The notes under the pieces were generated by a model that saw only the letters and a list, made by a program, of their open reading frames with translations, did no database searches and was not told where the DNA came from. Below are positions 3,326 through 56,880 of a DNA stretch of 64,000 nt, in pieces; the stretch's first letter is position 1; every line of letters starts with the position of its first letter. Source of the stretch: Escherichia phage vB_EcoM_LMP25. Made by a program: the position numbers and the translations under genes. The DNA lies in the sequence record MK482688.1, one strand, 5' to 3'.

Positions 3326-5560
3326 CTAAACACCACAACCCTCGCAATAAGCATCTTGCAGTGCAGATTTACCTACACCAATGCGACTATTAAGGTAGTA
3401 CATGGTTTTCATACCTACCGAGTTGGCATAAATCATGTACTTCAGAGCTTGAGCCAATGATACCTTCTTAGACTTTGCATAGTCAACATAGAAGTCTGAA
3501 GAAATAGCTTGACCAGTGAACTTTTGAACAATTGCATAACAATCAATCATGTCAAAGGTGTCAATATCCCAAGCAATTTCATAAACATACTTCAACTCTT
3601 CATAATCTGGAACAATAAACAGTACGTTACCAGTTGCAGACTTTTTAGTTAAAATAAAGTCACGAATTGGGTACAAGCCATTTGTCGTGTTAGTTGCTAG
3701 TGAAGAACTCTCATTAGGCATGTAAGCTTCTAATACAGAGTTTCGGATTCCACCATTTTCTTTGATACGTTGTGCTAAGTCATCCCAATCATATCGTAGT
3801 TTTGCATCATGCTTTTCATCAATCTTCTTGTTAGCTGTCTTTGGAGGAACCCAGCCTTCAGGATACTTAGTGAACTTCATGTACTCTGGAACGCCACGCT
3901 CTTTAGCAAGTCTCAGAGAGGCTTCATGCAGATAGTAAGAGTGCATCTCTGCCAGTTCATGAAGTTTCGTTTTACCTGCTCGTGAAGAGTAGTTCACATA
4001 GTTCTTCGCAAGGTAATGAGCCACATTTGTAAGGCCAATCCCAACAGAACGACGCTTCTGAACATGGTTACGCATCGACGGATACGGATAATCCATAAGG
4101 TCAATAACGGAGTCAACCATTGCAAGAGCATAATAAGCAACGTCAGCGTATTCATCTTCTGAAATTCTCCCTGCAACCAAACTAGCTAGGAAGCAAAGAG
4201 CCACCTCACCATCCTCTTTCACAGCATCGTCTCTGTAAAGGTCTGTCTCTTTCTCAAAACCATACACTGGCAATACAATTTCCATACAAAGATTTGACAT
4301 CTTCAATGGTTCTTTAAATGGTGTATGTGTGTTTGCATTGTTAGTGAAGAATGGATACACACGACCTGTAGCATAACGCTGTTGAATAAACAGCTTAGCA
4401 ATTTCACGAGCCTTGACTCGTCTGTGCTTAACTCCTGAATGTACTGCGTGACCAACTGCCATAGCAAACTCATCAGCAGATGCTGTGTAGAACATGTCAT
4501 AGAGTTTTGGTGCATCTTTGTAAGAGAATAGCAACCAATCTGTATCATACTGAACACACTGCCAGAAGTAATCGTTTGTGCCGAATGAGTAGTCCATCTC
4601 ATTAATACGTTTAGAAGGAACCGTTGTAGGGTGCTTCAAACGCAGTAAATCTTCAATCTGCGGGTCTAGAGCAGTGTAGAAGTTGTTAGCTGAACCACCA
4701 CGACTCTTCTGTTTGTTTGCCTCTACAGATGAACGTACAAGCTTGTAATAAGGTAGCTTACCCATGTGTTCAATAGTATTTTGACGGATACCATCACCAA
4801 TAGTGCGAGTCTCCATCAGCATCCCGATACCAGCTTGCTTTGTAGTCATATCATAAGCAACCTTTGCAGCAATACCGAGAGATTCAGCGGTATCATTCGC
4901 CTTAATCAAACAGCATGACGCATAACCTGATTTAGTGGCTCTTAAACCATTCAGGTAAGGAGTAGGAGCGTTAATCTTCAGGTCAGATAGGTAAGTGTAC
5001 AGCTTGATAACATCTTGCAGTCTACGGTGCTTTGGTTGCTTCTCAAAGGCTTTCATAGCCATACCCATAAACATAAATTGTGGTGACTCAAAAAGTCTTC
5101 CCGTTTTAATATCACGGATACCATACTTGTCTCTGAACTGTTTCAGGACTGCATAACCATAAGAGATATCTTTTGAGTGCACAATGTACCCTTGCAGGTA
5201 TTCAAGCTCTTCCTGAGAATAGTCCATCTTCTCCCAAAGTCCTGCTCTCTCCATATTTTTAACGAAGGTAACCAGCGTAGGAACCTTAGTAAAACCTCCA
5301 AAGGCTTCTTTGTAGATAATTCCCAGAAGTAGCCGTCCAGCCATATCTGAGTACTCTTGAGTTTGTTTATCAACACAAACATCAATCATGGCTTGGTGCA
5401 TCTCTTTTGTAGTGCAACCTTCATAGACACGTTTCATGGCTTCCATAGTGACTTCTGACCAGATGATTCCGCGCTTATCTGCCCATGATGCCCACTTATT
5501 CAGTCTTTCTGGGTCAAAGCTTACTACTGTACCGTTTGATTTTTTAATTGTCTTAATCAT
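3326..5560 (-). CDS. nrdA: Ribonucleotide reductase class I alpha subunit
   Basis: 744 aa; N-terminal ATP-cone, then CCLIKANDTAESLG and SNLCMEIVLP active-site-like blocks and a C-terminal CEGCG tail typical of NrdA. Confidence 0.9.
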   Translation of the reverse strand: MIKTIKKSNGTVVSFDPERLNKWASWADKRGIIWSEVTMEAMKRVYEGCTTKEMHQAMIDVCVDKQTQEYSDMAGRLLLGIIYKEAFGGFTKVPTLVTFVKNMERAGLWEKMDYSQEELEYLQGYIVHSKDISYGYAVLKQFRDKYGIRDIKTGRLFESPQFMFMGMAMKAFEKQPKHRRLQDVIKLYTYLSDLKINAPTPYLNGLRATKSGYASCCLIKANDTAESLGIAAKVAYDMTTKQAGIGMLMETRTIGDGIRQNTIEHMGKLPYYKLVRSSVEANKQKSRGGSANNFYTALDPQIEDLLRLKHPTTVPSKRINEMDYSFGTNDYFWQCVQYDTDWLLFSYKDAPKLYDMFYTASADEFAMAVGHAVHSGVKHRRVKAREIAKLFIQQRYATGRVYPFFTNNANTHTPFKEPLKMSNLCMEIVLPVYGFEKETDLYRDDAVKEDGEVALCFLASLVAGRISEDEYADVAYYALAMVDSVIDLMDYPYPSMRNHVQKRRSVGIGLTNVAHYLAKNYVNYSSRAGKTKLHELAEMHSYYLHEASLRLAKERGVPEYMKFTKYPEGWVPPKTANKKIDEKHDAKLRYDWDDLAQRIKENGGIRNSVLEAYMPNESSSLATNTTNGLYPIRDFILTKKSATGNVLFIVPDYEELKYVYEIAWDIDTFDMIDCYAIVQKFTGQAISSDFYVDYAKSKKVSLAQALKYMIYANSVGMKTMYYLNSRIGVGKSALQDAYCEGCGV

Positions 5561-5600: not shown

Positions 5601-5606
5601 CCTAGT

Positions 5607-5942
5607 TTAAATCTTGAAAATTTGCTCATTCTGCCACATATCGTAAAACTTATCACTTACTTTTGTGACTGAAGAGGCGTGCATACAATTTAGGAACCAT
5701 GACGGTGTACTAGCATCCATAATTGTTTCAAGTTTTTGTGTGACATTCACATCCATGTCTGCAACAACGTAATTGCCTCGCATCTTGCAAACAATTCTTC
5801 CAAACAAGATTGCACTTCTGCCTCTTCTGTCGTCACAGTACATAACTGTGTCTCCGTGCTTAACATCTTGTCCGATACTATCAACACCTAATTTAGCACC
5901 TGAGATAATGTCATCATAAGATAGCTTTTTTGCTTTAGACAC
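5607..5942 (-). CDS. Hypothetical protein
   Basis: 111-aa ORF, co-oriented and tightly packed with neighbours. Confidence 0.4.
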   Translation of the reverse strand: MSKAKKLSYDDIISGAKLGVDSIGQDVKHGDTVMYCDDRRGRSAILFGRIVCKMRGNYVVADMDVNVTQKLETIMDASTPSWFLNCMHASSVTKVSDKFYDMWQNEQIFKI

Positions 5943-7239: not shown

Positions 7240-7737
7240 TCAAGCACAGTTTGCTTTCATTACCTTATGGATTCTTTTTTCAGCATCTTCATAAGTTTCT
7301 TTAGTAATAAACTTAATTGCTGCAATATTGGCATTGTAGAAGAGCCTGAGCTTCGAGTCAATCCTTTTTGTCATTACATCGAATTTATGTTGAAGGTTTG
7401 CTTCACCATAGACTAGACCACCTTTTGTGTAGTAGGTTTGAATAATGTAAAAATCAAAAGATTCTTTTCCAAAGCTTTCAATATCTTTTTTAATATACTC
7501 AGAAGAGGTTTCGTAAGTCATCCAATCACTCTCCTTAGTGACTACCTTCTTCCGAGTCTTCCCAGCAACTTTTCTTTTTGTCACACTGTTAAGCTGTTTC
7601 TTTCCGATATAATATTGTCCAGTCTTCTTACAGTGCACTAAATAGACAAAGCCAAAATGTTTAGTGGGGTCAACTTCCCCACATAAAGATACCCAATGAC
7701 CGTAGGTAGGGCAATTGCCAAATCCTTTAATCTTCAT
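7240..7737 (-). CDS. GIY-YIG family endonuclease (putative homing endonuclease)
   Basis: N-terminal FGFVYLVHCKKTGQYYIGKK matches the GIY-(10-11)-YIG spacing of GIY-YIG nucleases. Confidence 0.5.
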   Translation of the reverse strand: MKIKGFGNCPTYGHWVSLCGEVDPTKHFGFVYLVHCKKTGQYYIGKKQLNSVTKRKVAGKTRKKVVTKESDWMTYETSSEYIKKDIESFGKESFDFYIIQTYYTKGGLVYGEANLQHKFDVMTKRIDSKLRLFYNANIAAIKFITKETYEDAEKRIHKVMKANCA

Positions 7738-8767
7738 TCATACACGGCTCCCAATTATATTTCTTGAAAGAGAAATTGTCTTTTGGATTTCTCTCTTGAT
7801 ATGCTATCCAGAAATGCTGTTCCATTAACTCTAATGGTGTTTTGGTAACAGTCTGTCCATCCCATGATACATAGGTGTAAGAGTCTTTTTTAGCATAGAG
7901 TTCATAGATAGCATCAAGACACTCTTTATAGGTCTCTTTACCCTCTAAAGCATTCATCACAGCTACTTTACCAGCACCTTTAAGGCCGAAGTAGTTGTCT
8001 GCATTATCTCCAGCAACAGCCTGATAACACAAAAATTTAAAACCTACACCAACTGTTTTTGCAGCTTTTGGTTTTGATTTGATAGGACAATCCCAGATAT
8101 CACCAACATTATTATCAGCAATAAAAATTAGTGGTGACTTTTCATAAGTCATATCAATACAATAAGTCCCTTCAGCTTGTCGAAGGTCTTTGTCAATACT
8201 CATGAGAGCAGCCTTCTTACCCATCTTTTCAGCTTTAGCAATTACAATTGAATCGGCTTCGAATCCTCCCTTTAAGAGTTTGAACTCTGGTCTTGACAGA
8301 AGATACTCACGACAAGCGACTAAATGTGTTGGTGTGACAGCATCTTTACGGTTACCTTGATATTGGTGCTCAAGACCTTTCACATCTTTATGTTTATGCA
8401 CACCCTTCTCTGTTAAATAACCTACCCAAGTTCTTTCTTTACCAACAACCTTAAGCCATTCCTGAAGAACCTGCTGAGTAGCCATGATAGCTTCTTTTTC
8501 ACTCTTAGCTTCTTTCCAAGTCTGTCTTTCCCATTCATCTTCATCAAATGCTAGGCCAAGCTCTTCTACAAGGATTCTCTGGTCTGCTAACCATCTTGCA
8601 GCATCTTTTGCATTATCAAATGATTCAGATTCTTCTGCTGTGAGCTTATTAACGTATTTATACTTTGCTTTCTCAACTACACAAGCACCTTTATAGGCAA
8701 TGCTGTCAGAGTCAATAAAGACATGTGTAACTGAATCGGGAAGCTTTGTTAATGTGTACTTCTCCAT
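7727..8767 (-). CDS. RNase H / 5'-3' flap endonuclease (T4 RNase H-like)
   Basis: 346 aa; VFIDSDSIAY, EADSIVIAKAEK, SIDKDLRQ and GDNADNYFGLKGAG blocks align by eye with the acidic clusters and H3TH region of T4 RNase H/FEN nucleases. Confidence 0.55.
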   Translation of the reverse strand: MEKYTLTKLPDSVTHVFIDSDSIAYKGACVVEKAKYKYVNKLTAEESESFDNAKDAARWLADQRILVEELGLAFDEDEWERQTWKEAKSEKEAIMATQQVLQEWLKVVGKERTWVGYLTEKGVHKHKDVKGLEHQYQGNRKDAVTPTHLVACREYLLSRPEFKLLKGGFEADSIVIAKAEKMGKKAALMSIDKDLRQAEGTYCIDMTYEKSPLIFIADNNVGDIWDCPIKSKPKAAKTVGVGFKFLCYQAVAGDNADNYFGLKGAGKVAVMNALEGKETYKECLDAIYELYAKKDSYTYVSWDGQTVTKTPLELMEQHFWIAYQERNPKDNFSFKKYNWEPCMNED

Positions 8768-30040: not shown

Positions 30041-38065
<8,025 letters not shown>

Positions 38066-40594: not shown

Positions 40595-41194
40595 TTATTT
40601 TACCCCTTTGGAGTCTACATCTAGATGGATAGTATATTCTGGTGGCTCTTGTCCTTCTTCATAAACCAACTCACCATCAACAATGACACGCTCAATAATA
40701 CTTCCACGTTCATCCTTCAGGACTGAGTTTTTTACAAGAGTTACAACAAGAGGTGCAGAATTTTCGAAATCTGTATTGAGATAAGTATAGTCATTCGGGA
40801 TAGCTCCAGTGTCCAGTACTGTAGCTCCTGTTTCTTCAAGGATTAAATCTCTGACTGAACTCATCTCTAATCGTTGTTTAAGCTCAAGCATAATACTGTG
40901 AGCACCTTTACCATTCACCGTAATTAATACAGGAATCTGAAAAGCAATTCTGTAGCAAACTACATCATCCTCAACAAACTTATCAAGAACCCAACCATAA
41001 GGTGTTGCAGCATCTTGACAATATACGGTAATAAATGGCTGGTCAGGTTTTAAACCTTTGTCATTTGAGTTATCAGAAGGGTAAGCTCTAATTACATTTG
41101 GTCTATTATTCTTATCACGAGCTAGTCTGTGACCAATAACATCCACTAAGGTTCTAACTAGACCTTTTTCAAGTTCTGCTGTTTCTAACTGCAT
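40595..41194 (-). CDS. Hypothetical structural protein (tail terminator/completion region)
   Basis: 199 aa; synteny. Confidence 0.35.
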   Translation of the reverse strand: MQLETAELEKGLVRTLVDVIGHRLARDKNNRPNVIRAYPSDNSNDKGLKPDQPFITVYCQDAATPYGWVLDKFVEDDVVCYRIAFQIPVLITVNGKGAHSIMLELKQRLEMSSVRDLILEETGATVLDTGAIPNDYTYLNTDFENSAPLVVTLVKNSVLKDERGSIIERVIVDGELVYEEGQEPPEYTIHLDVDSKGVK

Positions 41195-41570
41195 TCATTT
41201 TATCCCTTCTAATAATGATATATTCATAATGGGATGTATGGGCTAATTGCTGTGACCAATCCATAGTCATAAATACTTCATACTCATGACCATCAATCAT
41301 AACAATATCAGACTCATTCCACTCTACATCATCTGAAGTTCTAAGCTTATATGTGGTATACAGGATTCTTGTATCGGTAAGCCTAATACCTTCCGGTAAA
41401 GCAATCTGTGTACCATTCTTTACAGAACCTTTGATATATGGCTGGATATTACCTTTGCAGTTAACCTCTACAATATCTTGTGAAGCTACCCAATCACCAT
41501 CATCATTATAATAACCGTCTTCAGAGACTTTACGCTTTACTACAAAGCTGTGTCTGTTTAAGAGTCTCAT
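41169..41570 (-). CDS. Hypothetical structural protein
   Basis: 133 aa; synteny. Confidence 0.35.
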   Translation of the reverse strand: MRLLNRHSFVVKRKVSEDGYYNDDGDWVASQDIVEVNCKGNIQPYIKGSVKNGTQIALPEGIRLTDTRILYTTYKLRTSDDVEWNESDIVMIDGHEYEVFMTMDWSQQLAHTSHYEYIIIRRDKMNAVRNSRT

Positions 41571-54196: not shown

Positions 54197-54284
54197 TGGT
54201 GTGCCGTGTAGGAGTCGAACCTACCGAGTCTCAATGACAAGGGATTTACAGTCCCCACCGCTACCATCTACGGGATAACGACAC
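54197..54284 (-). tRNA. tRNA-Tyr (GTA), type II
   Basis: Acceptor GTGTCGT/ACGGCAC, anticodon stem GGGGA/TCCCT with loop CTGTAAA, long variable arm, 88 nt. Confidence 0.7.
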
Positions 54285-54353
54285 ATTTAATTTCTATTCA
54301 GGCTAAGGACTTGCACCTTACAAATCGGTGAGCAATCGCTTCTCTCCTAAATT

Positions 54354-54430
54354 TGGCGGTTAGTCAGGGATTCGAACCCTGTGCCATTCGCTTAACAGGC
54401 GACCGCACATACCTTATGTGCTTCCTAACC
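54354..54430 (-). tRNA. tRNA-Asn (GTT)
   Basis: D-stem GCAC/GTGC, anticodon loop CTGTTAA, T-stem CAGGG/CCCTG. Confidence 0.7.
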
Positions 54431-54443
54431 ATGTTTAGTATTA

Positions 54444-54508
54444 CCAGACCGTATATTTCAATTTTTTCCGCTAAAAATTTAATAAATATTGCTGTAAACG
54501 GTCTTCTG
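54444..54508. repeat. tRNA-spacer repeat, copy c (CCAGACCGT ... TTGCTGTAAACGGTCTTCTG)
   Basis: Inverted arms AGACCGT / ACGGTCT around an AT-rich loop of about 45 nt; ends 6 nt before the next tRNA. Confidence 0.65.
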
Positions 54509-54514
54509 TAAATT

Positions 54515-54591
54515 TGGAGGCGGGTGCAGGAGTCGAACCTGCCGATACCATGCTAATGAGACATGTGAGACGCCCTTTCTCTATACCCGCA
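54515..54591 (-). tRNA. tRNA (CAT), second CAT-anticodon gene; Met or Ile2
   Basis: D-stem GAGA/TCTC, anticodon stem CATGT/GCATG with loop CTCATTA (unusual T37), T-arm GCAGG-TTCGACT-CCTGC, unpaired 1-72. Confidence 0.55.
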
Positions 54592-54602
54592 ATTCTTAAT
54601 GA

Positions 54603-54674
54603 CCAGACCAAATATCTTCTTTGTCCGATTAACTTTCAGATGAGTAGATTAAGTTTGCTGTAATTGGTCTTCTG
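54603..54674. repeat. tRNA-spacer repeat, copy d (CCAGACCAA ... TTGCTGTAATTGGTCTTCTG)
   Basis: Inverted arms AGACCAA / TTGGTCT; ends 7 nt before tRNA-Glu. Confidence 0.65.
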
Positions 54675-54681
54675 TCAAAAC

Positions 54682-54759
54682 TGGCGTTCCAGAAGGGATT
54701 TGAACCCTCAAATATCCACTTTGAAAGAGTGGTGACTTTACCATTTTGTCTACTGGAAC
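54682..54759 (-). tRNA. tRNA-Glu (TTC)
   Basis: Acceptor GTTCCAG/CTGGAAC, perfect anticodon stem CCACT/AGTGG with loop CTTTCAA. Confidence 0.75.
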
Positions 54760-54765
54760 ATTAAT

Positions 54766-54846
54766 TTGGTCTCCGTTGAAGGATTTGAACCCTCGACCCC
54801 TTGCTCCCAAAGCAAGTGCTGCTAAACCAAACTGAGCTAAACGGAG
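54766..54846 (-). tRNA. tRNA-Pro (TGG)
   Basis: Acceptor CTCCGTT/AACGGAG, perfect anticodon stem CTTGC/GCAAG with loop TTTGGGA. Confidence 0.7.
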
Positions 54847-54869: not shown

Positions 54870-54901
54870 ACCACTTTAACATTATTTTTTAGTGATTGTC
54901 A
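54870..54901 (-). promoter_or_regulatory. Putative minus-strand promoter (TTGACA-N18-TAAAGT) upstream of the tRNA array
   Basis: TTGACA with a weak -10; carries a variant (TTGTCAAGAACTTTTTT) of the motif at 53431 and 57028. Confidence 0.35.
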
Positions 54902-54965
54902 AGAACTTTTTTAAAATATTTTTCAGTATCTTAGAAAAGCTCTCATTTCGTTTCTATGTAGAACA

Positions 54966-54994
54966 TATTAAAGGGTATTAAACACATTGTCAAT
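54966..54994 (-). promoter_or_regulatory. Sigma70-like promoter TTGACA-N17-TAATAT upstream of the tRNA array
   Basis: Consensus-like hexamers with 17-nt spacing, between the vWA gene stop and the first tRNA. Confidence 0.5.
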
Positions 54995-55011
54995 ACCCTT
55001 TTTAAAACTTT

Positions 55012-56427
55012 TTACCAGATATAACGGTCAATCATTACTGCTTTGAGCATTACACTGATTGGGTCAAACTTCTCACCACCAAGCAGAGCTTTTAAAGTGG
55101 CTGGAGAGAACCCTGATACCATTGCTACACCGTTATCCTTAACAGATACTTCGCAAGTACCATTACGGTTTGCTAAGTACCAGAATACCAGTTGTGGCAT
55201 CTCATATCCAGCTTTTTTGTACTTACTCTGAATTGCTTCAAAGTTTGTACGTCCGTTAGCTCCATCAACCTGATTGAACTCCATATCGGAGAAGATGATA
55301 AGCTTACTTGGCATATCTTTCTGAGTCAAGTTGTTTCTTTTACCTGTCTCAAGAATGCGGTCAAAAGCTGCTTGTAAGTTAGTTGAGCCATATTCAACGT
55401 GTCGCATCACCTGACGATGACGGTTTCGTAAATTACCACTCAGTTCGATGAAGTGAGGGTTTGTTGAATAAACCATCAACTCATCCTTAAAGCAACCTGT
55501 ATTGCGTTCTGCTACATACAAGGCAAGTGATACACCAATATCAAGTGCAGTGATTGAACCAAAATTCACCCAAGACATTGAGCTTGAAACATCAGTCATA
55601 CATAGGATGTTTTCACCTTCTGCCATCCAGTTTGGTAGTGCTTTCCACTGCTCATTAGCAACATCTGCATTACCATACTTGAGAGATTTAATCACATCGT
55701 ATGGATAAACAGCACCAGCATTAATCTTAGTCTCACCTTTTGATAAGGACTCGATGTAAGCTTTGTAACGCTCTCCATCTTTACGGTTAAACAGTTTTTG
55801 GTAACGTGCAGCAGCAAGTGAAGGAATCTTACTGTAGTCAATATTACCAAACTCATTAGCAGAGATTTTTTGTTCAACTGTATCAGATAGTGCAGACAGC
55901 AGTGTGCGGTACTCTTTCTCACTCAAGTTTGCAAACTTGCAGAAACGTTTTACAAACTGCTTATGACGTGGTTTGACTCGTGGTAACCACTTAGCCGCCA
56001 AACCTGCTGTTGCAGGGTCTAGTAATGCTGCTTCTAAATGTTTGAAGGCATCTGTCTCGAAACGAGTACCTACGAAGATTTTGAAGTCATCAAAACGACC
56101 AAGTTCTGCAATCTTATCCATAATGCGAAGAACCTGCGTAGGCTCTAAAACTTTATCTTCAATCGCTTGAAGCAAAACAGTTCTGAAGGCTTTACGCTCA
56201 CCCATACCTTCTCGTACATCTCGCATATGCAGTAAAATACGAACTGCAACATCAACATCCTCACGCAAAGCTTTGTAGAACAAGTCTGGTAAGATTTCTA
56301 CATTGCTACGGCTTGAACCAGCAGCTTTGTAAAAATCTACAAGAGCAGACATTGATGAAGTATGGTTTACAGCACCATTTTCAGTTCGACCTGCATGAAG
56401 GTGCGCATGTTTAAATAACTCGCTCAT
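55012..56427 (-). CDS. von Willebrand factor A (vWA) domain protein with helical N-terminal domain; possible Ro60/TROVE-like RNA-binding protein
   Basis: 471 aa; MIDAS motif DVSSSM (DxSxS) at about residue 296 starts a ~175-aa C-terminal vWA-like region; ~290-aa helical N-terminus. Encoded directly upstream of the tRNA array. Confidence 0.5.
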   Translation of the reverse strand: MSELFKHAHLHAGRTENGAVNHTSSMSALVDFYKAAGSSRSNVEILPDLFYKALREDVDVAVRILLHMRDVREGMGERKAFRTVLLQAIEDKVLEPTQVLRIMDKIAELGRFDDFKIFVGTRFETDAFKHLEAALLDPATAGLAAKWLPRVKPRHKQFVKRFCKFANLSEKEYRTLLSALSDTVEQKISANEFGNIDYSKIPSLAAARYQKLFNRKDGERYKAYIESLSKGETKINAGAVYPYDVIKSLKYGNADVANEQWKALPNWMAEGENILCMTDVSSSMSWVNFGSITALDIGVSLALYVAERNTGCFKDELMVYSTNPHFIELSGNLRNRHRQVMRHVEYGSTNLQAAFDRILETGKRNNLTQKDMPSKLIIFSDMEFNQVDGANGRTNFEAIQSKYKKAGYEMPQLVFWYLANRNGTCEVSVKDNGVAMVSGFSPATLKALLGGEKFDPISVMLKAVMIDRYIW

Positions 56428-56508
56428 ATTTTACTCTCTTCTCTCATTTGTTGTTTGATGTGACAGACTTTAGAGTAACTTTATAGAGTCTGTCAACATC
56501 TTTTAAAA

Positions 56509-56880
56509 TTATTTTTTAAGGGTTGCAACAGCAGAGAACGTTGGTTTGTTGTCTGTCTGAGACTGACCACCGTTATCAGGAGTCTTCTTAGTGTCTGCTG
56601 CAATTGCTTTCATCTCACCTGCTGAGTGAGTCATGATAGTTTTACCGACCTCAATCATACTCTTGATGGTTACATCGTCTGTGTTTAACCCGAACTCTGC
56701 AAGCTTAGCAGCATCCCTTGTAACAATCGCCTCAAACAGCTTTGCAGCAAACTCAGCAGAATTATCAATGGTCAGTTGAGCTTTTACGAGTGAGCTTTTG
56801 TTACGAGAGCCTTTTGGTCTTCCAGATGGGTTTCCAGACTGGCCTTTTTTAAACTGGCCTTTGTTTGTTCTGTTTTTCAT
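56509..56880 (-). CDS. Hypothetical protein (basic, G/K-rich N-terminus)
   Basis: 123 aa; first gene of the minus-strand unit leading into the vWA gene and tRNA array. Confidence 0.4.
   Translation of the reverse strand: MKNRTNKGQFKKGQSGNPSGRPKGSRNKSSLVKAQLTIDNSAEFAAKLFEAIVTRDAAKLAEFGLNTDDVTIKSMIEVGKTIMTHSAGEMKAIAADTKKTPDNGGQSQTDNKPTFSAVATLKK

What the first reader, a model, noticed from the sequence alone, without database searches (positions are those of the whole stretch)
55012..56427. vWA-domain protein with Ro60-like architecture encoded directly upstream of the tRNA array
The 471-aa product has a ~290-aa helical N-terminal region and a C-terminal vWA domain with a DxSxS MIDAS motif (DVSSSM). 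That is the domain order of Ro60/TROVE RNA-binding proteins. In bacteria and some phages, Ro60 orthologues are known to be encoded next to tRNA-like Y RNAs (YrlA). Here the gene abuts a tRNA array that contains several aberrant tRNA-like elements and unassigned structured spacers, so a phage Ro60 plus Y-RNA-like module is a specific, testable hypothesis.
Basis: partly seen in the sequence, partly recalled or inferred. Interest (0 to 1): 0.75.

Follow-up and report, generated by a model that had tools for sequence, protein, structure and literature searches.

The report
Phage Ro60-like protein with Y-like RNAs
A Felix O1-type phage gene encodes a protein predicted to have the ring shape of the RNA-quality-control protein Ro60, and beside it, hidden among the phage's tRNA genes, lie four unannotated small structured RNAs, one a tRNA mimic like bacterial Y RNAs, a pairing that recurs in many unrelated phages.

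Summary

What I could not find described is the RNA partner. Four paralogous elements sit between tRNAs at 53827-54681 (-). Each has a bulged basal stem plus a single-stranded ACAGCAA motif. The longest (53827-53970) adds a T arm, a closed acceptor-like hairpin and a D arm, which is the order that defines bacterial YrlA Y RNAs. The structure is supported by covariation. A model built from these elements finds relatives beside DUF2828 genes in phages of Mycobacterium, Bacillus, Enterococcus, Klebsiella, Sinorhizobium, Staphylococcus and Aeromonas. Simpler pattern searches add Listeria, Campylobacter and Fusobacterium.

Rfam's YrlA model misses the window element but matches the Enterococcus phage relatives. 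Binding and function remain inferred.

The parts
55012..56427 (-). Gene for the 471-aa Ro60-fold protein (Pfam DUF2828 + DUF7788; PHROG 850). The helical ring is about aa 1-265 (55633-56427); the vWA domain is about aa 266-471 (55015-55632).
55576..55593 (-). MIDAS DxSxS motif (DVSSSM, aa 279-284). The partner residues T349 and D381 are also invariant.
   Evidence: Invariant columns in alignments A1 and A7; aligned to the Ro60 MIDAS motif DVSGSM.
56467..56496 (-). Sigma-70-like promoter (TTGACA-18-TAAAGT) upstream of the gene.
   Evidence: Consensus scan. This is a match to a consensus only; the total number of such sites did not exceed the shuffles.
54873..55001 (-). Hairpin after the gene's stop codon and two sigma-70-like promoters (54965-54993, 54873-54902) that would drive the tRNA / Y-like RNA array.
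   Evidence: Consensus scan; sequence read directly.
54597..54681 (-). Short Y-like element A, between tRNA-Glu and tRNA-Met. It has a bulged basal stem (AGACCAA/UUGGUCU) and a UUACAGCAA motif, with no tRNA-like insert.
   Evidence: Covariance models R1 39.8 bits and R2 44.1 bits; fold; pattern search.
54438..54515 (-). Short Y-like element B, between tRNA-Met and tRNA-Asn (stem AGACCGU/ACGGUCU, UUACAGCAA).
   Evidence: R1 55.6 bits and R2 51.9 bits; fold; pattern search.
53971..54059 (-). Short Y-like element C (stem AGACCAA/UUGGUCU, AUACAGCAA).
   Evidence: R2 38.5 bits with filters off; fold; pattern search; conserved in 7 Ounavirinae.
53827..53970 (-). Long YrlA-topology RNA (element D). 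Helix 1 is 53963-53966 with 53830-53833. Helix 2 is 53952-53959 with 53835-53842. ACAGCAA is 53944-53950. The V hairpin is 53910-53932, the T arm (GAAGG-UUCGAUU-CCUUC) 53892-53908, the closed acceptor-like hairpin 53874-53891 and the D arm 53856-53872.
   Evidence: MFE fold; RNAalifold on 7 Ounavirinae with compensatory changes in the acceptor-like stem; R1 155.5 bits; cross-lineage covariation. The order T, acceptor-like hairpin, D is the YrlA order (PMC4201824).
53690..53825 (-). A further conserved structured RNA (element E): a closing stem of about 22 bp around about 95 nt. It lacks the ACAGCAA module, so whether it belongs to the system is uncertain.
   Evidence: RNAalifold on 6 sequences, with 6 pairs showing compensatory change.
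53608..54846 (-). The tRNA genes that flank and separate the elements: Pro 54767-54846, Glu 54682-54759, Met 54515-54591, Asn 54354-54430, Tyr 54197-54284, Asp 54114-54191, Lys 53608-53683.
   Evidence: ARAGORN and Rfam tRNA hits.

Best explanation
The gene encodes a highly diverged Ro60-type protein: a ring of helical repeats closed by a vWA/MIDAS domain. It belongs to the DUF2828/DUF7788 family, which is found in many phage lineages. Its likely RNA partners are four small RNAs encoded just downstream within the phage's tRNA array. All four share a bulged basal stem followed by a single-stranded (N)CAGCAA motif, which is the presumed protein-binding module. One of them (53827-53970) also carries a tRNA-like domain in the permuted order T arm, closed acceptor-like hairpin, D arm, as in bacterial YrlA. 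The other three resemble short YrlB-type RNAs.

The inferred mechanism has three steps. (1) The array is transcribed from sigma-70-like promoters just after the gene. (2) RNase P and tRNA 3'-end processing of the flanking tRNAs would release the elements as discrete small RNAs. (3) The RNAs would bind the ring and act as Y RNAs do elsewhere, gating the ring's cavity or tethering the protein to a tRNA-recognising enzyme or exoribonuclease such as PNPase. The outcome could be surveillance or repair of tRNAs during infection, or diversion of a host nuclease.

Shown computationally: the fold, the RNA structures, their covariation, and their co-location with the gene across lineages. Inferred: transcription and processing, protein-RNA binding, and function.

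For: RNA in the window. The pattern CAGAAGACCNNNWACAGCAA occurs 4 times, all on the - strand between 53944 and 54674, against 0.09 expected. The MFE fold of the long element gives exactly basal stem, V, T, acceptor-like hairpin, D. In 7 Ounavirinae the T and D arms are invariant while the acceptor-like stem has three different sequences, all paired. This is the conservation pattern published for YrlA.

Cross-lineage support. The Felix-derived model R1 finds full-length relatives next to DUF2828 genes in a metagenomic relative (70 bits), Klebsiella (58 and 46), Bacillus (58), Enterococcus (54.5 and 31) and Mycobacterium cluster L (34 bits, 96 nt after the gene). On the alignment fitted to model R1, 95.1% of cells are paired against 63.7% in shuffles and about 40% with slid partners, and 26 of 31 pairs show double changes. 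Model R2 then found elements in lineages not used to build it: Sinorhizobium phiM12 (60.9 and 49.5 bits), a Twort-like Staphylococcus phage (31.5) and Aeromonas LAh_9 (six short forms just upstream of the gene).

Enrichment. Stem+ACAGCAA modules number 27 within 2.6 kb on the gene's strand in 13 loci, against 4 in the other 432 kb of strand (expected 0.63, Poisson P about 1e-34).

Link to YrlA. Rfam's YrlA model independently matches the Enterococcus phage elements (47.8 bits, E 4e-9; 34.4 bits). A bona fide mycobacteriophage YrlA scores only 36.1 bits on that model, and that same RNA's tRNA-like core is hit by R2.

Context and precedent. RNA-repair or tRNA genes sit nearby in other phages: RtcB, RNA ligases, phosphoesterase and CCA-adding enzyme. 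TROVE Ro60 proteins with Yrl RNAs are known in phages and can bind host PNPase (PMC4201824, PMC12135203).
Against: There is no experimental evidence of expression, processing or binding.

The N-terminal 235 aa show no significant sequence similarity to TROVE, so common ancestry of the ring rests on a predicted structure.

Rfam YrlA gives no hit on the window element even at E<=10 in a 231-nt search. The published Ro-binding motif GNCGAAN0-1G is replaced by ACAGCAA.

The A15/C48 combination I read by eye in the long element does not form the canonical Levitt pair.

The ACAGCAA motif was defined after seeing the data. The covariation alignment A4 was fitted to the model, which inflates the pairing statistics.

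Short-form covariance-model scores in the Gram-positive phages (22-26 bits) are close to the noise seen in the T5 tRNA array (about 21 bits). Those cases rest on the motif-plus-stem pattern and on its clustering.

Two jumbo phages (GAP32, ME3) show no element within 6 kb.

No RtcB, RNA ligase or CCA-enzyme homologue was found in this 64-kb window, so a repair role is not supported locally.
Confidence: 0.65

Rival explanations
1. The ACAGCAA stem elements are cis-acting signals rather than stable partner RNAs. They could be processing or punctuation hairpins of tRNA arrays. They could also be leader or trailer elements that regulate the DUF2828 mRNA, for example by autoregulatory binding of the protein to its own transcript.
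For: In the window they sit tightly between tRNAs. In several phages one copy lies directly upstream of the gene's start codon: Fusobacterium 34 nt, phiM12 17 nt, plus Campylobacter, Bacillus, Enterococcus and Aeromonas. The short forms have AU-rich, poorly structured interiors.
Against: The position relative to the gene varies. It is downstream in Felix-like, Mycobacterium, Staphylococcus and Klebsiella phages and upstream in others. Copy number ranges from 1 to 7. The elements occur without a tRNA array in Mycobacterium phage BigCheese and the Staphylococcus phage. The T5 tRNA array, with no DUF2828 gene in the region examined, has none. The long forms carry a complete tRNA-like domain with covariation, which has no obvious role as a spacer. 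Autoregulation would still imply that the protein binds this module.
Confidence: 0.17
2. The protein is a vWA/MIDAS protein with a role unrelated to RNA, such as a protein-protein adaptor, assembly factor or anti-defence factor. On this view its Ro60-like helical part reflects a generic alpha-solenoid resemblance in a predicted model, and the co-location with the RNAs reflects a shared 'accessory early region'.
For: No sequence-level TROVE signal was found in the N-terminal 235 aa. As I recall, Pfam also lists DUF2828 members from bacteria and eukaryotes; this was not checked here. Overexpression of the cluster L homologue LeBron gp53 is toxic without a known mechanism (PMC13148394). The role of MIDAS in Ro60 itself is unknown (PMC12135203).
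Confidence: 0.1
3. The long element is debris: the 3' half of one decayed tRNA gene followed by the 5' half of the next.
For: Adjacent tRNAs naturally give the order T arm, then D arm. The covariance models score such junctions at about 20-24 bits in tRNA arrays. The array does contain degenerate tRNAs.
Against: The two 'acceptor strands' are complementary to each other and co-vary across lineages; the acceptor-like helix has 98.8% of cells paired and all 7 pairs show double changes. There is no anticodon arm on either side. The whole unit is enclosed by a conserved, co-varying basal stem. It is kept in about 245 Ounavirinae genomes and in distant phages. It scores 120-155 bits, against a noise level of about 21.
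Confidence: 0.03

Closest known systems
Bacterial Ro60 (Rsr) with YrlA/YrlB Y RNAs (Salmonella rsr-yrlBA-rtcBA; Deinococcus Rsr-Yrn1-PNPase 'RYPER')
   Same: The predicted ring-plus-vWA/MIDAS fold is the same. The RNA genes lie within a few kb on the same strand. One RNA has a tRNA-like domain in the order V, T arm, closed acceptor-like hairpin, D arm, accompanied by shorter RNAs that share only the presumed binding module, as with YrlA and YrlB. T and D are nearly invariant while the acceptor-like stem is variable but paired. RNA ligase or RtcB genes sit nearby in several phages.
   Different: The protein belongs to a different sequence family (DUF2828/DUF7788, not TROVE/vWA_Ro60) and is about 60-80 aa shorter. 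The presumed binding motif is (N)CAGCAA next to a bulged stem, not GNCGAAN0-1G. Rfam's YrlA model does not match the window RNA. The RNAs are embedded in a phage tRNA array, in up to 7 copies.
Phage-encoded TROVE Ro60 with Yrl RNAs (cluster C1 mycobacteriophages, CcrColossus, Bacillus phage G; Thermus phage phiLo phiRo60-Yrl1/2)
   Different: Those proteins match Pfam TROVE and vWA_Ro60 strongly; this one does not. Their RNAs carry the CGAA motif. The family here is far more widespread among phages (721 records) and has not been studied experimentally as far as I could find.
PHROG 850 / RefSeq 'RNA-binding protein' / SEA-PHAGES 'Ro-like RNA binding protein' (e.g. wV8 gp47, LeBron gp53)
   Same: This is the same protein family. 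The window protein matches PHROG 850 end to end (E 7e-184) and is 97.8% identical in DNA to the wV8 gene.
   Different: These are annotation labels only. No RNA partner is annotated in any of the records examined; the element's position is listed as 'none' or as a small hypothetical ORF.
Phage T5 'tRNA-like stable RNAs with unknown functions' (RNA1, RNA2, RNA3 and others) within its tRNA region
   Same: They are non-tRNA small stable RNAs interspersed in a phage tRNA array. They show that such arrays can yield extra stable RNAs.
   Different: The T5 region examined holds no DUF2828 gene. The covariance model finds nothing above tRNA-junction noise there, so they are not the same RNA family.

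Membership tests
Ro60 / TROVE protein family (Pfam PF05731 + PF25045) | Significant sequence match to the TROVE domain profile | tested here: not met
   Pfam scan at E<=1 gives only DUF2828 and DUF7788. phmmer and hmmsearch against PDB find no significant Ro60 hit. hhalign against a TROVE alignment does not align aa 1-234. As a control, McGee gp233 hits TROVE at 9e-50.
Ro60 / TROVE protein family (Pfam PF05731 + PF25045) | Ring of helical (HEAT-like) repeats closed by a C-terminal vWA domain | tested here: met
Ro60 / TROVE protein family (Pfam PF05731 + PF25045) | vWA domain of the Ro60 type with a MIDAS motif (DxSxS...T...D) | tested here: met
   D279, S281, S283, T349 and D381 are invariant. 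hhalign aligns aa 235-445 to the Ro60 vWA domain, prob 88%, E 3e-6.
Ro60 / TROVE protein family (Pfam PF05731 + PF25045) | Binds Y RNA on the outer surface and single-stranded RNA ends in the central cavity | not testable with these tools
   Needs RIP/CLIP, EMSA or an experimental structure.
YrlA Y RNA (Rfam RF02553) | Score at or above the Rfam gathering threshold (69 bits) | tested here: not met
   No YrlA hit on the window at E<=1 or at E<=10 on 53780-54010. Related Enterococcus phage elements score 47.8, 34.4 and 28.4 bits. A genuine C1 mycobacteriophage YrlA also scores only 36.1 bits.
YrlA Y RNA (Rfam RF02553) | tRNA-like domain in the order (V) - T arm - closed acceptor-like stem-loop - D arm, enclosed by a 5'/3' stem | tested here: met
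   MFE and consensus folds; covariation; definition taken from PMC4201824.
YrlA Y RNA (Rfam RF02553) | Conserved 5' GNCGAAN0-1G motif (proposed Ro-binding site) | tested here: not met
   The conserved single-stranded motif after the 5' strand of the stem is (U/A)ACAGCAA in all four window elements and (N)CAGCAA in other lineages. A GGCGAAG string exists but overlaps the T stem (read).
YrlA Y RNA (Rfam RF02553) | Encoded within about 4 kb of the Ro60 gene on the same strand | tested here: met
   The elements lie 330-1185 nt downstream of the gene's stop, on the same strand. The same holds in 16 of 18 lineages examined.
DUF2828 / DUF7788 family (PF11443 + PF25043; PHROG 850) | Profile matches above the curated thresholds | tested here: met
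   DUF7788 148.1 bits (cut-off 27.1) and DUF2828 102.3 bits (cut-off 29). PHROG 850 E 7e-184, full length.

The most novel reading that the evidence does not exclude
DUF2828/DUF7788 proteins and the RNAs carrying the bulged-stem (N)CAGCAA module would form a second, largely phage-borne class of Ro60-Y RNA ribonucleoproteins. The RNAs come with or without a permuted tRNA-like domain. The pairing is present in hundreds of phages, including Felix O1-like, A511-like Listeria, Twort-like Staphylococcus, Campylobacter, KVP40-like Vibrio and cluster L mycobacteriophages. The RNAs would be produced as by-products of tRNA-array processing and would be used in the conflict over tRNAs and RNA decay between phage and host. 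Possible roles are surveillance or repair of damaged tRNAs, decoys for tRNA-targeting defences, or capture of host PNPase.
Probability: 0.5. Interest if true: 0.8.

Novelty: new variant of a known kind. Interest (0 to 1): 0.72.

Why it matters
Ro60-Y RNA particles are conserved from bacteria to humans, yet their function is still poorly understood. In phages only the canonical TROVE type has been studied. If this reading is right, three things follow.

- A sequence-unrecognisable Ro60 family with its own RNA partners is carried by hundreds of phages (721 of the 50,697 records searched), including model and therapeutic phages.
- The 'junk' spacers of phage tRNA arrays encode a defined class of small RNAs.
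- There is a simple, testable recognition module: a bulged stem plus CAGCAA.

This gives a tractable E. coli/Salmonella phage system in which to ask what a Ro60 RNP does during infection. It also bears on how phages defend their tRNA supply or manipulate host RNA decay. Finally, it would correct annotation: in the records examined the elements are unannotated or overlaid by spurious small ORFs.

Tried and rejected
- **Sequence routes to Ro60.** Pfam at E<=1, phmmer against PDB, and hmmsearch with two family profiles gave no significant TROVE or Ro60 hit. Only structure comparison and hhalign on the C-terminal half connect the families.
- **Rfam on the array.** Only tRNAs were found. Weak tmRNA hits at 53031-53303 turned out to be an aberrant tRNA-Arg(UCU)-like element, not a tmRNA. 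YrlA is absent from the window even in a 231-nt search.
Full covariance-model scans, including one with filters off, find nothing above tRNA-junction noise (22.7 bits or less).
- **Apparent long-form hits in Listeria (3682-3826) and Campylobacter (7389-7520).** These were rejected as unreliable. The first is the junction of an unannotated tRNA with tRNA-Lys. Both score 18-25 bits, which is the range produced by adjacent tRNAs in T5.
- **RNA-repair partners in this phage.** tblastn with phage RtcB, two RNA ligases, a CCA enzyme, a phosphoesterase and tRNA amidotransferases found nothing in the 64-kb window.
- **Literature.** Searches for DUF2828, Ro-like, YrlA plus phage, and TROVE plus phage plus tRNA found no description of these RNAs. 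The 2020 Annual Review and the supplementary tables of Chen et al. 2014 were not available, so prior mention cannot be excluded.
Full report
**What the window is.** The region is 100% identical to Escherichia phages vB_EcoM_LMP34 and LMP33 and about 98% identical to wV8. It is therefore a Felix O1-like myovirus of the genus Felixounavirus.

**Checking the observation.** ORF 55012..56427 (-) encodes 471 aa. Twenty-five tRNA genes follow on the same strand from 54846 down to 49771, so the gene's stop lies 165 nt before tRNA-Pro. The DVSSSM motif is at aa 279-284. D279, S281, S283, T349 and D381 are invariant in a 31-member and in a more diverse 20-member family alignment, which makes the MIDAS motif complete. 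The helical part is about 265 aa rather than about 290.

**Is the protein Ro60-like?**
- By sequence it is not recognisably so. Pfam gives DUF2828 (PF11443) plus DUF7788 (PF25043) and no TROVE hit at E<=1.
- phmmer and two profile searches of all PDB sequences give nothing significant. With the more diverse profile, though, four of the five weak hits (E 0.36-1.3) are Ro60 proteins, matched at the MIDAS region.
- By predicted structure it is. An AlphaFold2 model (pLDDT 87.5, pTM 0.87) has Ro60/TROVE entries as its top 11 Foldseek hits in the PDB, aligned over the whole length (E 2e-9 to 1e-7, TM 0.53-0.66). These are followed only by isolated vWA domains.
- I took a genuine phage TROVE Ro60 (Mycobacterium phage McGee gp233; Pfam TROVE 9e-50 and vWA_Ro60 4e-54) and built an alignment of its relatives. 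Profile-profile comparison aligns aa 235-445 of the window protein with the last ring helix plus the vWA domain (prob 88%, E 3e-6, and similar). It does not align the N-terminal 234 aa.
- The protein is therefore best described as a Ro60-fold protein of a separate sequence family. Membership of Pfam TROVE is not met.
- The label is not new. PHROG 850 is called 'RNA-binding protein' (E 7e-184), RefSeq names wV8 gp47 'RNA-binding protein', and cluster L mycobacteriophage homologues are annotated 'Ro-like RNA binding protein'.
- I found no functional study. One screen reports that LeBron gp53 is toxic when overexpressed (PMC13148394). 'DUF2828' appears in only five unrelated papers.

**The RNA side in the window.** While reading the - strand I saw a motif four times in the spacers between tRNAs: CAGAAGACC-NNN-(A/U)ACAGCAA, each followed 40-110 nt later by GGUCUGG. 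A pattern search confirms four hits, all on the - strand between 53944 and 54674, against 0.09 expected.
- Each unit folds into a basal helix interrupted by an asymmetric bulge. The ACAGCAA lies single-stranded just inside the helix.
- Three units are short, about 65-85 nt. The fourth (53827-53970) contains, in order: a small hairpin, a perfect T arm (GAAGG-UUCGAUU-CCUUC), a 7-bp hairpin, and a D arm (GUGU-AAUGGUA-GCAC).
- That is a tRNA opened at the anticodon and closed at the acceptor end. It is the arrangement that defines bacterial YrlA Y RNAs: V, T, 'AS' stem-loop, D, with the 5' and 3' ends paired (PMC4201824). The minimum-free-energy fold reproduces it without constraints.

**Conservation within the subfamily.** The element is present in about 245 Ounavirinae genomes, almost always unannotated. 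In an unconstrained MAFFT alignment of seven genomes from three genera, the T and D arms are invariant. The acceptor-like hairpin has three different sequences (ACUCGGC/GUCGAGU, ACACGU/GCGUGU, ACCCUUC/GAAGGGU), and all of them are paired. The same pattern was reported for YrlA.

**Conservation across unrelated phages.**
- A covariance model built from those seven sequences (R1) finds only these elements in the 64-kb window. It also finds full-length relatives next to the DUF2828 gene, on the same strand, in several other phages: a metagenomic relative with 56% protein identity (70 bits), Klebsiella phage phi1_175008 (58 and 46 bits), Bacillus phage PJN02 (58), Enterococcus phage Ben (54.5 and 31), and Mycobacterium phage BigCheese (34 bits, 96 nt after the 'Ro-like' gene).
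- On the resulting 19-sequence alignment, 95.1% of pair cells are canonical. This compares with 63.7% after shuffling and about 40% when partners are slid. Twenty-six of 31 pairs show changes on both sides. That alignment is fitted to the model, so these numbers are inflated.
- A second model (R2) was applied to lineages not used to build it. It found two long forms in Sinorhizobium phage phiM12 (60.9 and 49.5 bits), one in a Twort-like Staphylococcus phage (31.5 bits) and a run of short forms directly upstream of the gene in Aeromonas phage LAh_9.
- A simple search for 'stem, 0-3 nt, ACAGCAA, complementary strand' shows tandem clusters abutting the gene in Listeria, Staphylococcus, Campylobacter, Mycobacterium and Fusobacterium phages.
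- Over 13 loci there are 27 such modules within 2.6 kb on the gene's strand and 4 in the remaining 432 kb of strand (expected 0.63; Poisson P about 1e-34). The motif was defined after seeing the data, so the P value is indicative only.
- The only two ACAGCAA heptamers in 17 kb of Campylobacter phage DNA both lie within 170 nt of the gene's start.
- The module accompanies the gene even where there is no tRNA array, as in BigCheese and Staphylococcus phage S-CoN_Ph3. It is absent from the T5 tRNA array, where the model's best scores (about 21 bits) are junctions between adjacent tRNAs. That sets the noise level. For this reason I do not rely on weak long-form hits in Listeria and Campylobacter.
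- Two jumbo phages (GAP32, ME3) have no element within 6 kb.

**Relation to the known YrlA family.**
- Rfam's YrlA model gives no hit on the window element, even at E<=10 in a 231-nt search.
- It does match three elements upstream of the DUF2828 gene in Enterococcus phage Ben (47.8 bits, E 4e-9; 34.4; 28.4). Two of these are also hit by my Felix-derived model.
- As a calibration, the bona fide YrlA upstream of the TROVE Ro60 of a cluster C1 mycobacteriophage scores only 36.1 bits on Rfam's model. Its tRNA-like core, but not its basal part, is recognised by R2.
- The tRNA-like domains of the two classes are thus alike. The basal module differs: (N)CAGCAA beside a bulged stem here, against GNCGAAN0-1G in YrlA. 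A different binding module is what one would expect if the protein partner is a different family.

**How it most likely works (inferred).**
- The gene and the array each have TTGACA-type promoter-like sites on the - strand, at 56496, 54993 and 54902.
- The elements are packed between tRNAs with only a few nucleotides to spare. Ordinary tRNA 5' and 3' processing would therefore release them as separate small RNAs.
- The shared stem/ACAGCAA module would be the docking site on the ring. The long RNA's tRNA-like domain could recruit tRNA-recognising enzymes. It could also tether an exoribonuclease, as Y RNAs tether PNPase in Deinococcus and as phiLo Ro60-Yrl complexes bind and attenuate host PNPase (PMC12135203).
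- In other phages the gene neighbours RtcB, RNA ligases, a phosphoesterase and CCA-adding enzyme. This echoes the cellular rsr-yrlBA-rtcBA operon and points to tRNA damage and repair.
- In this window no such enzymes were found, so the specific function here is open.
- A copy of the module directly upstream of the start codon in several phages leaves room for autoregulation as an additional or alternative role.

**Verdict.** The protein's Ro60-likeness is real at the fold level and already reflected in annotation. The Y-like RNAs are real, conserved and unannotated, and as far as I could determine they are undescribed. I rate this a new variant of a known kind of system. Binding and function remain to be shown.

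Noticed in passing
window 53690-53825 (-): Another conserved structured RNA lies between the long Y-like RNA and tRNA-Lys. It has a closing stem of about 22 bp, with 6 compensatory pairs between Felixounavirus and Suspvirus/Mooglevirus. Its interior differs strongly between the two groups except for a conserved GAUUCUAGAUU. It has no ACAGCAA module and no Rfam match.
   Followed up: partly
window 53031-53112 (-): An aberrant tRNA-Arg(UCU)-like element. It keeps the anticodon arm, T arm and a 6-bp acceptor stem, but it lacks a D arm and has an 18-nt insertion relative to the intact tRNA-Arg of Sf15 and Moogle. It is the source of the weak Rfam tmRNA hits. wV8 annotates the homologous spot as a pseudo-tRNA.
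   Followed up: partly
window ~52810-52900 (-): By eye, this is another tRNA-like sequence: an 8-bp acceptor-type pairing, a T-arm-like GGGGUUCAACUCCUC, a loop containing CCA, and a 3' GCCA. ARAGORN and Rfam do not call it. The 658-nt stretch 52792-53449 has no ORF of 50 aa or more, whereas wV8 carries an HNH endonuclease gene at the corresponding place.
   Followed up: no
window 54060-54113 (-): Two conserved hairpins (GAGAGGGCUAUUUAGCCCCUCCC and CCUUAAAGGG...CCUUUAAAGG) lie directly after tRNA-Asp and before the Y-like elements C and D. They may be a terminator or a processing signal.
   Followed up: no
window 56509-56880 (-): The gene immediately upstream encodes a 123-aa basic DUF5681 protein with a GNPSGRPKG motif. 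It also precedes the DUF2828 gene in the more distant relatives L012 and L013 (63% and 57% protein identity), so it may be a conserved neighbour within this phage group.
   Followed up: no
L017 2250-2600 (+) (Enterococcus phage vB_OCPT_Ben): An unannotated tmRNA (Rfam 149.5 bits) and a large unannotated tRNA array lie upstream of the DUF2828 gene. Three sub-threshold YrlA matches (4173-4273, 5274-5381, 5606-5727) fall in the same stretch.
   Followed up: partly
L022 2823-3961 (+) (Aeromonas phage LAh_9): About seven tandem short stem-(N)CAGCAA modules run right up to the DUF2828 gene. The last two overlap the annotated CDS start (3866), whereas similarity to the window protein begins at 4001, so the annotated start is probably too far upstream. 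An SPFH/band-7 gene follows directly and an RNA ligase 2 gene lies 3.7 kb downstream.
   Followed up: partly
L020 (phage T5 record positions 30284-33949 and 40848-41566): The T5 record annotates eight 'stable RNAs with unknown functions', three of them called tRNA-like, inside its tRNA region. They are not related to the RNA family described here, but they show that extra stable RNAs in phage tRNA arrays are an old, unresolved observation.
   Followed up: partly
L014 5903-8130 (Klebsiella phage phi1_175008): Here the DUF2828 gene sits inside the tRNA array. tRNA-Arg ends 22 nt before its start, and the 700-nt gap after it holds two long Y-like RNAs (7695-7833, 7834-7966) and at least one short one (7634-7688). 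A tRNA annotated as 'tRNA-Pyl' is also in this array.
   Followed up: partly
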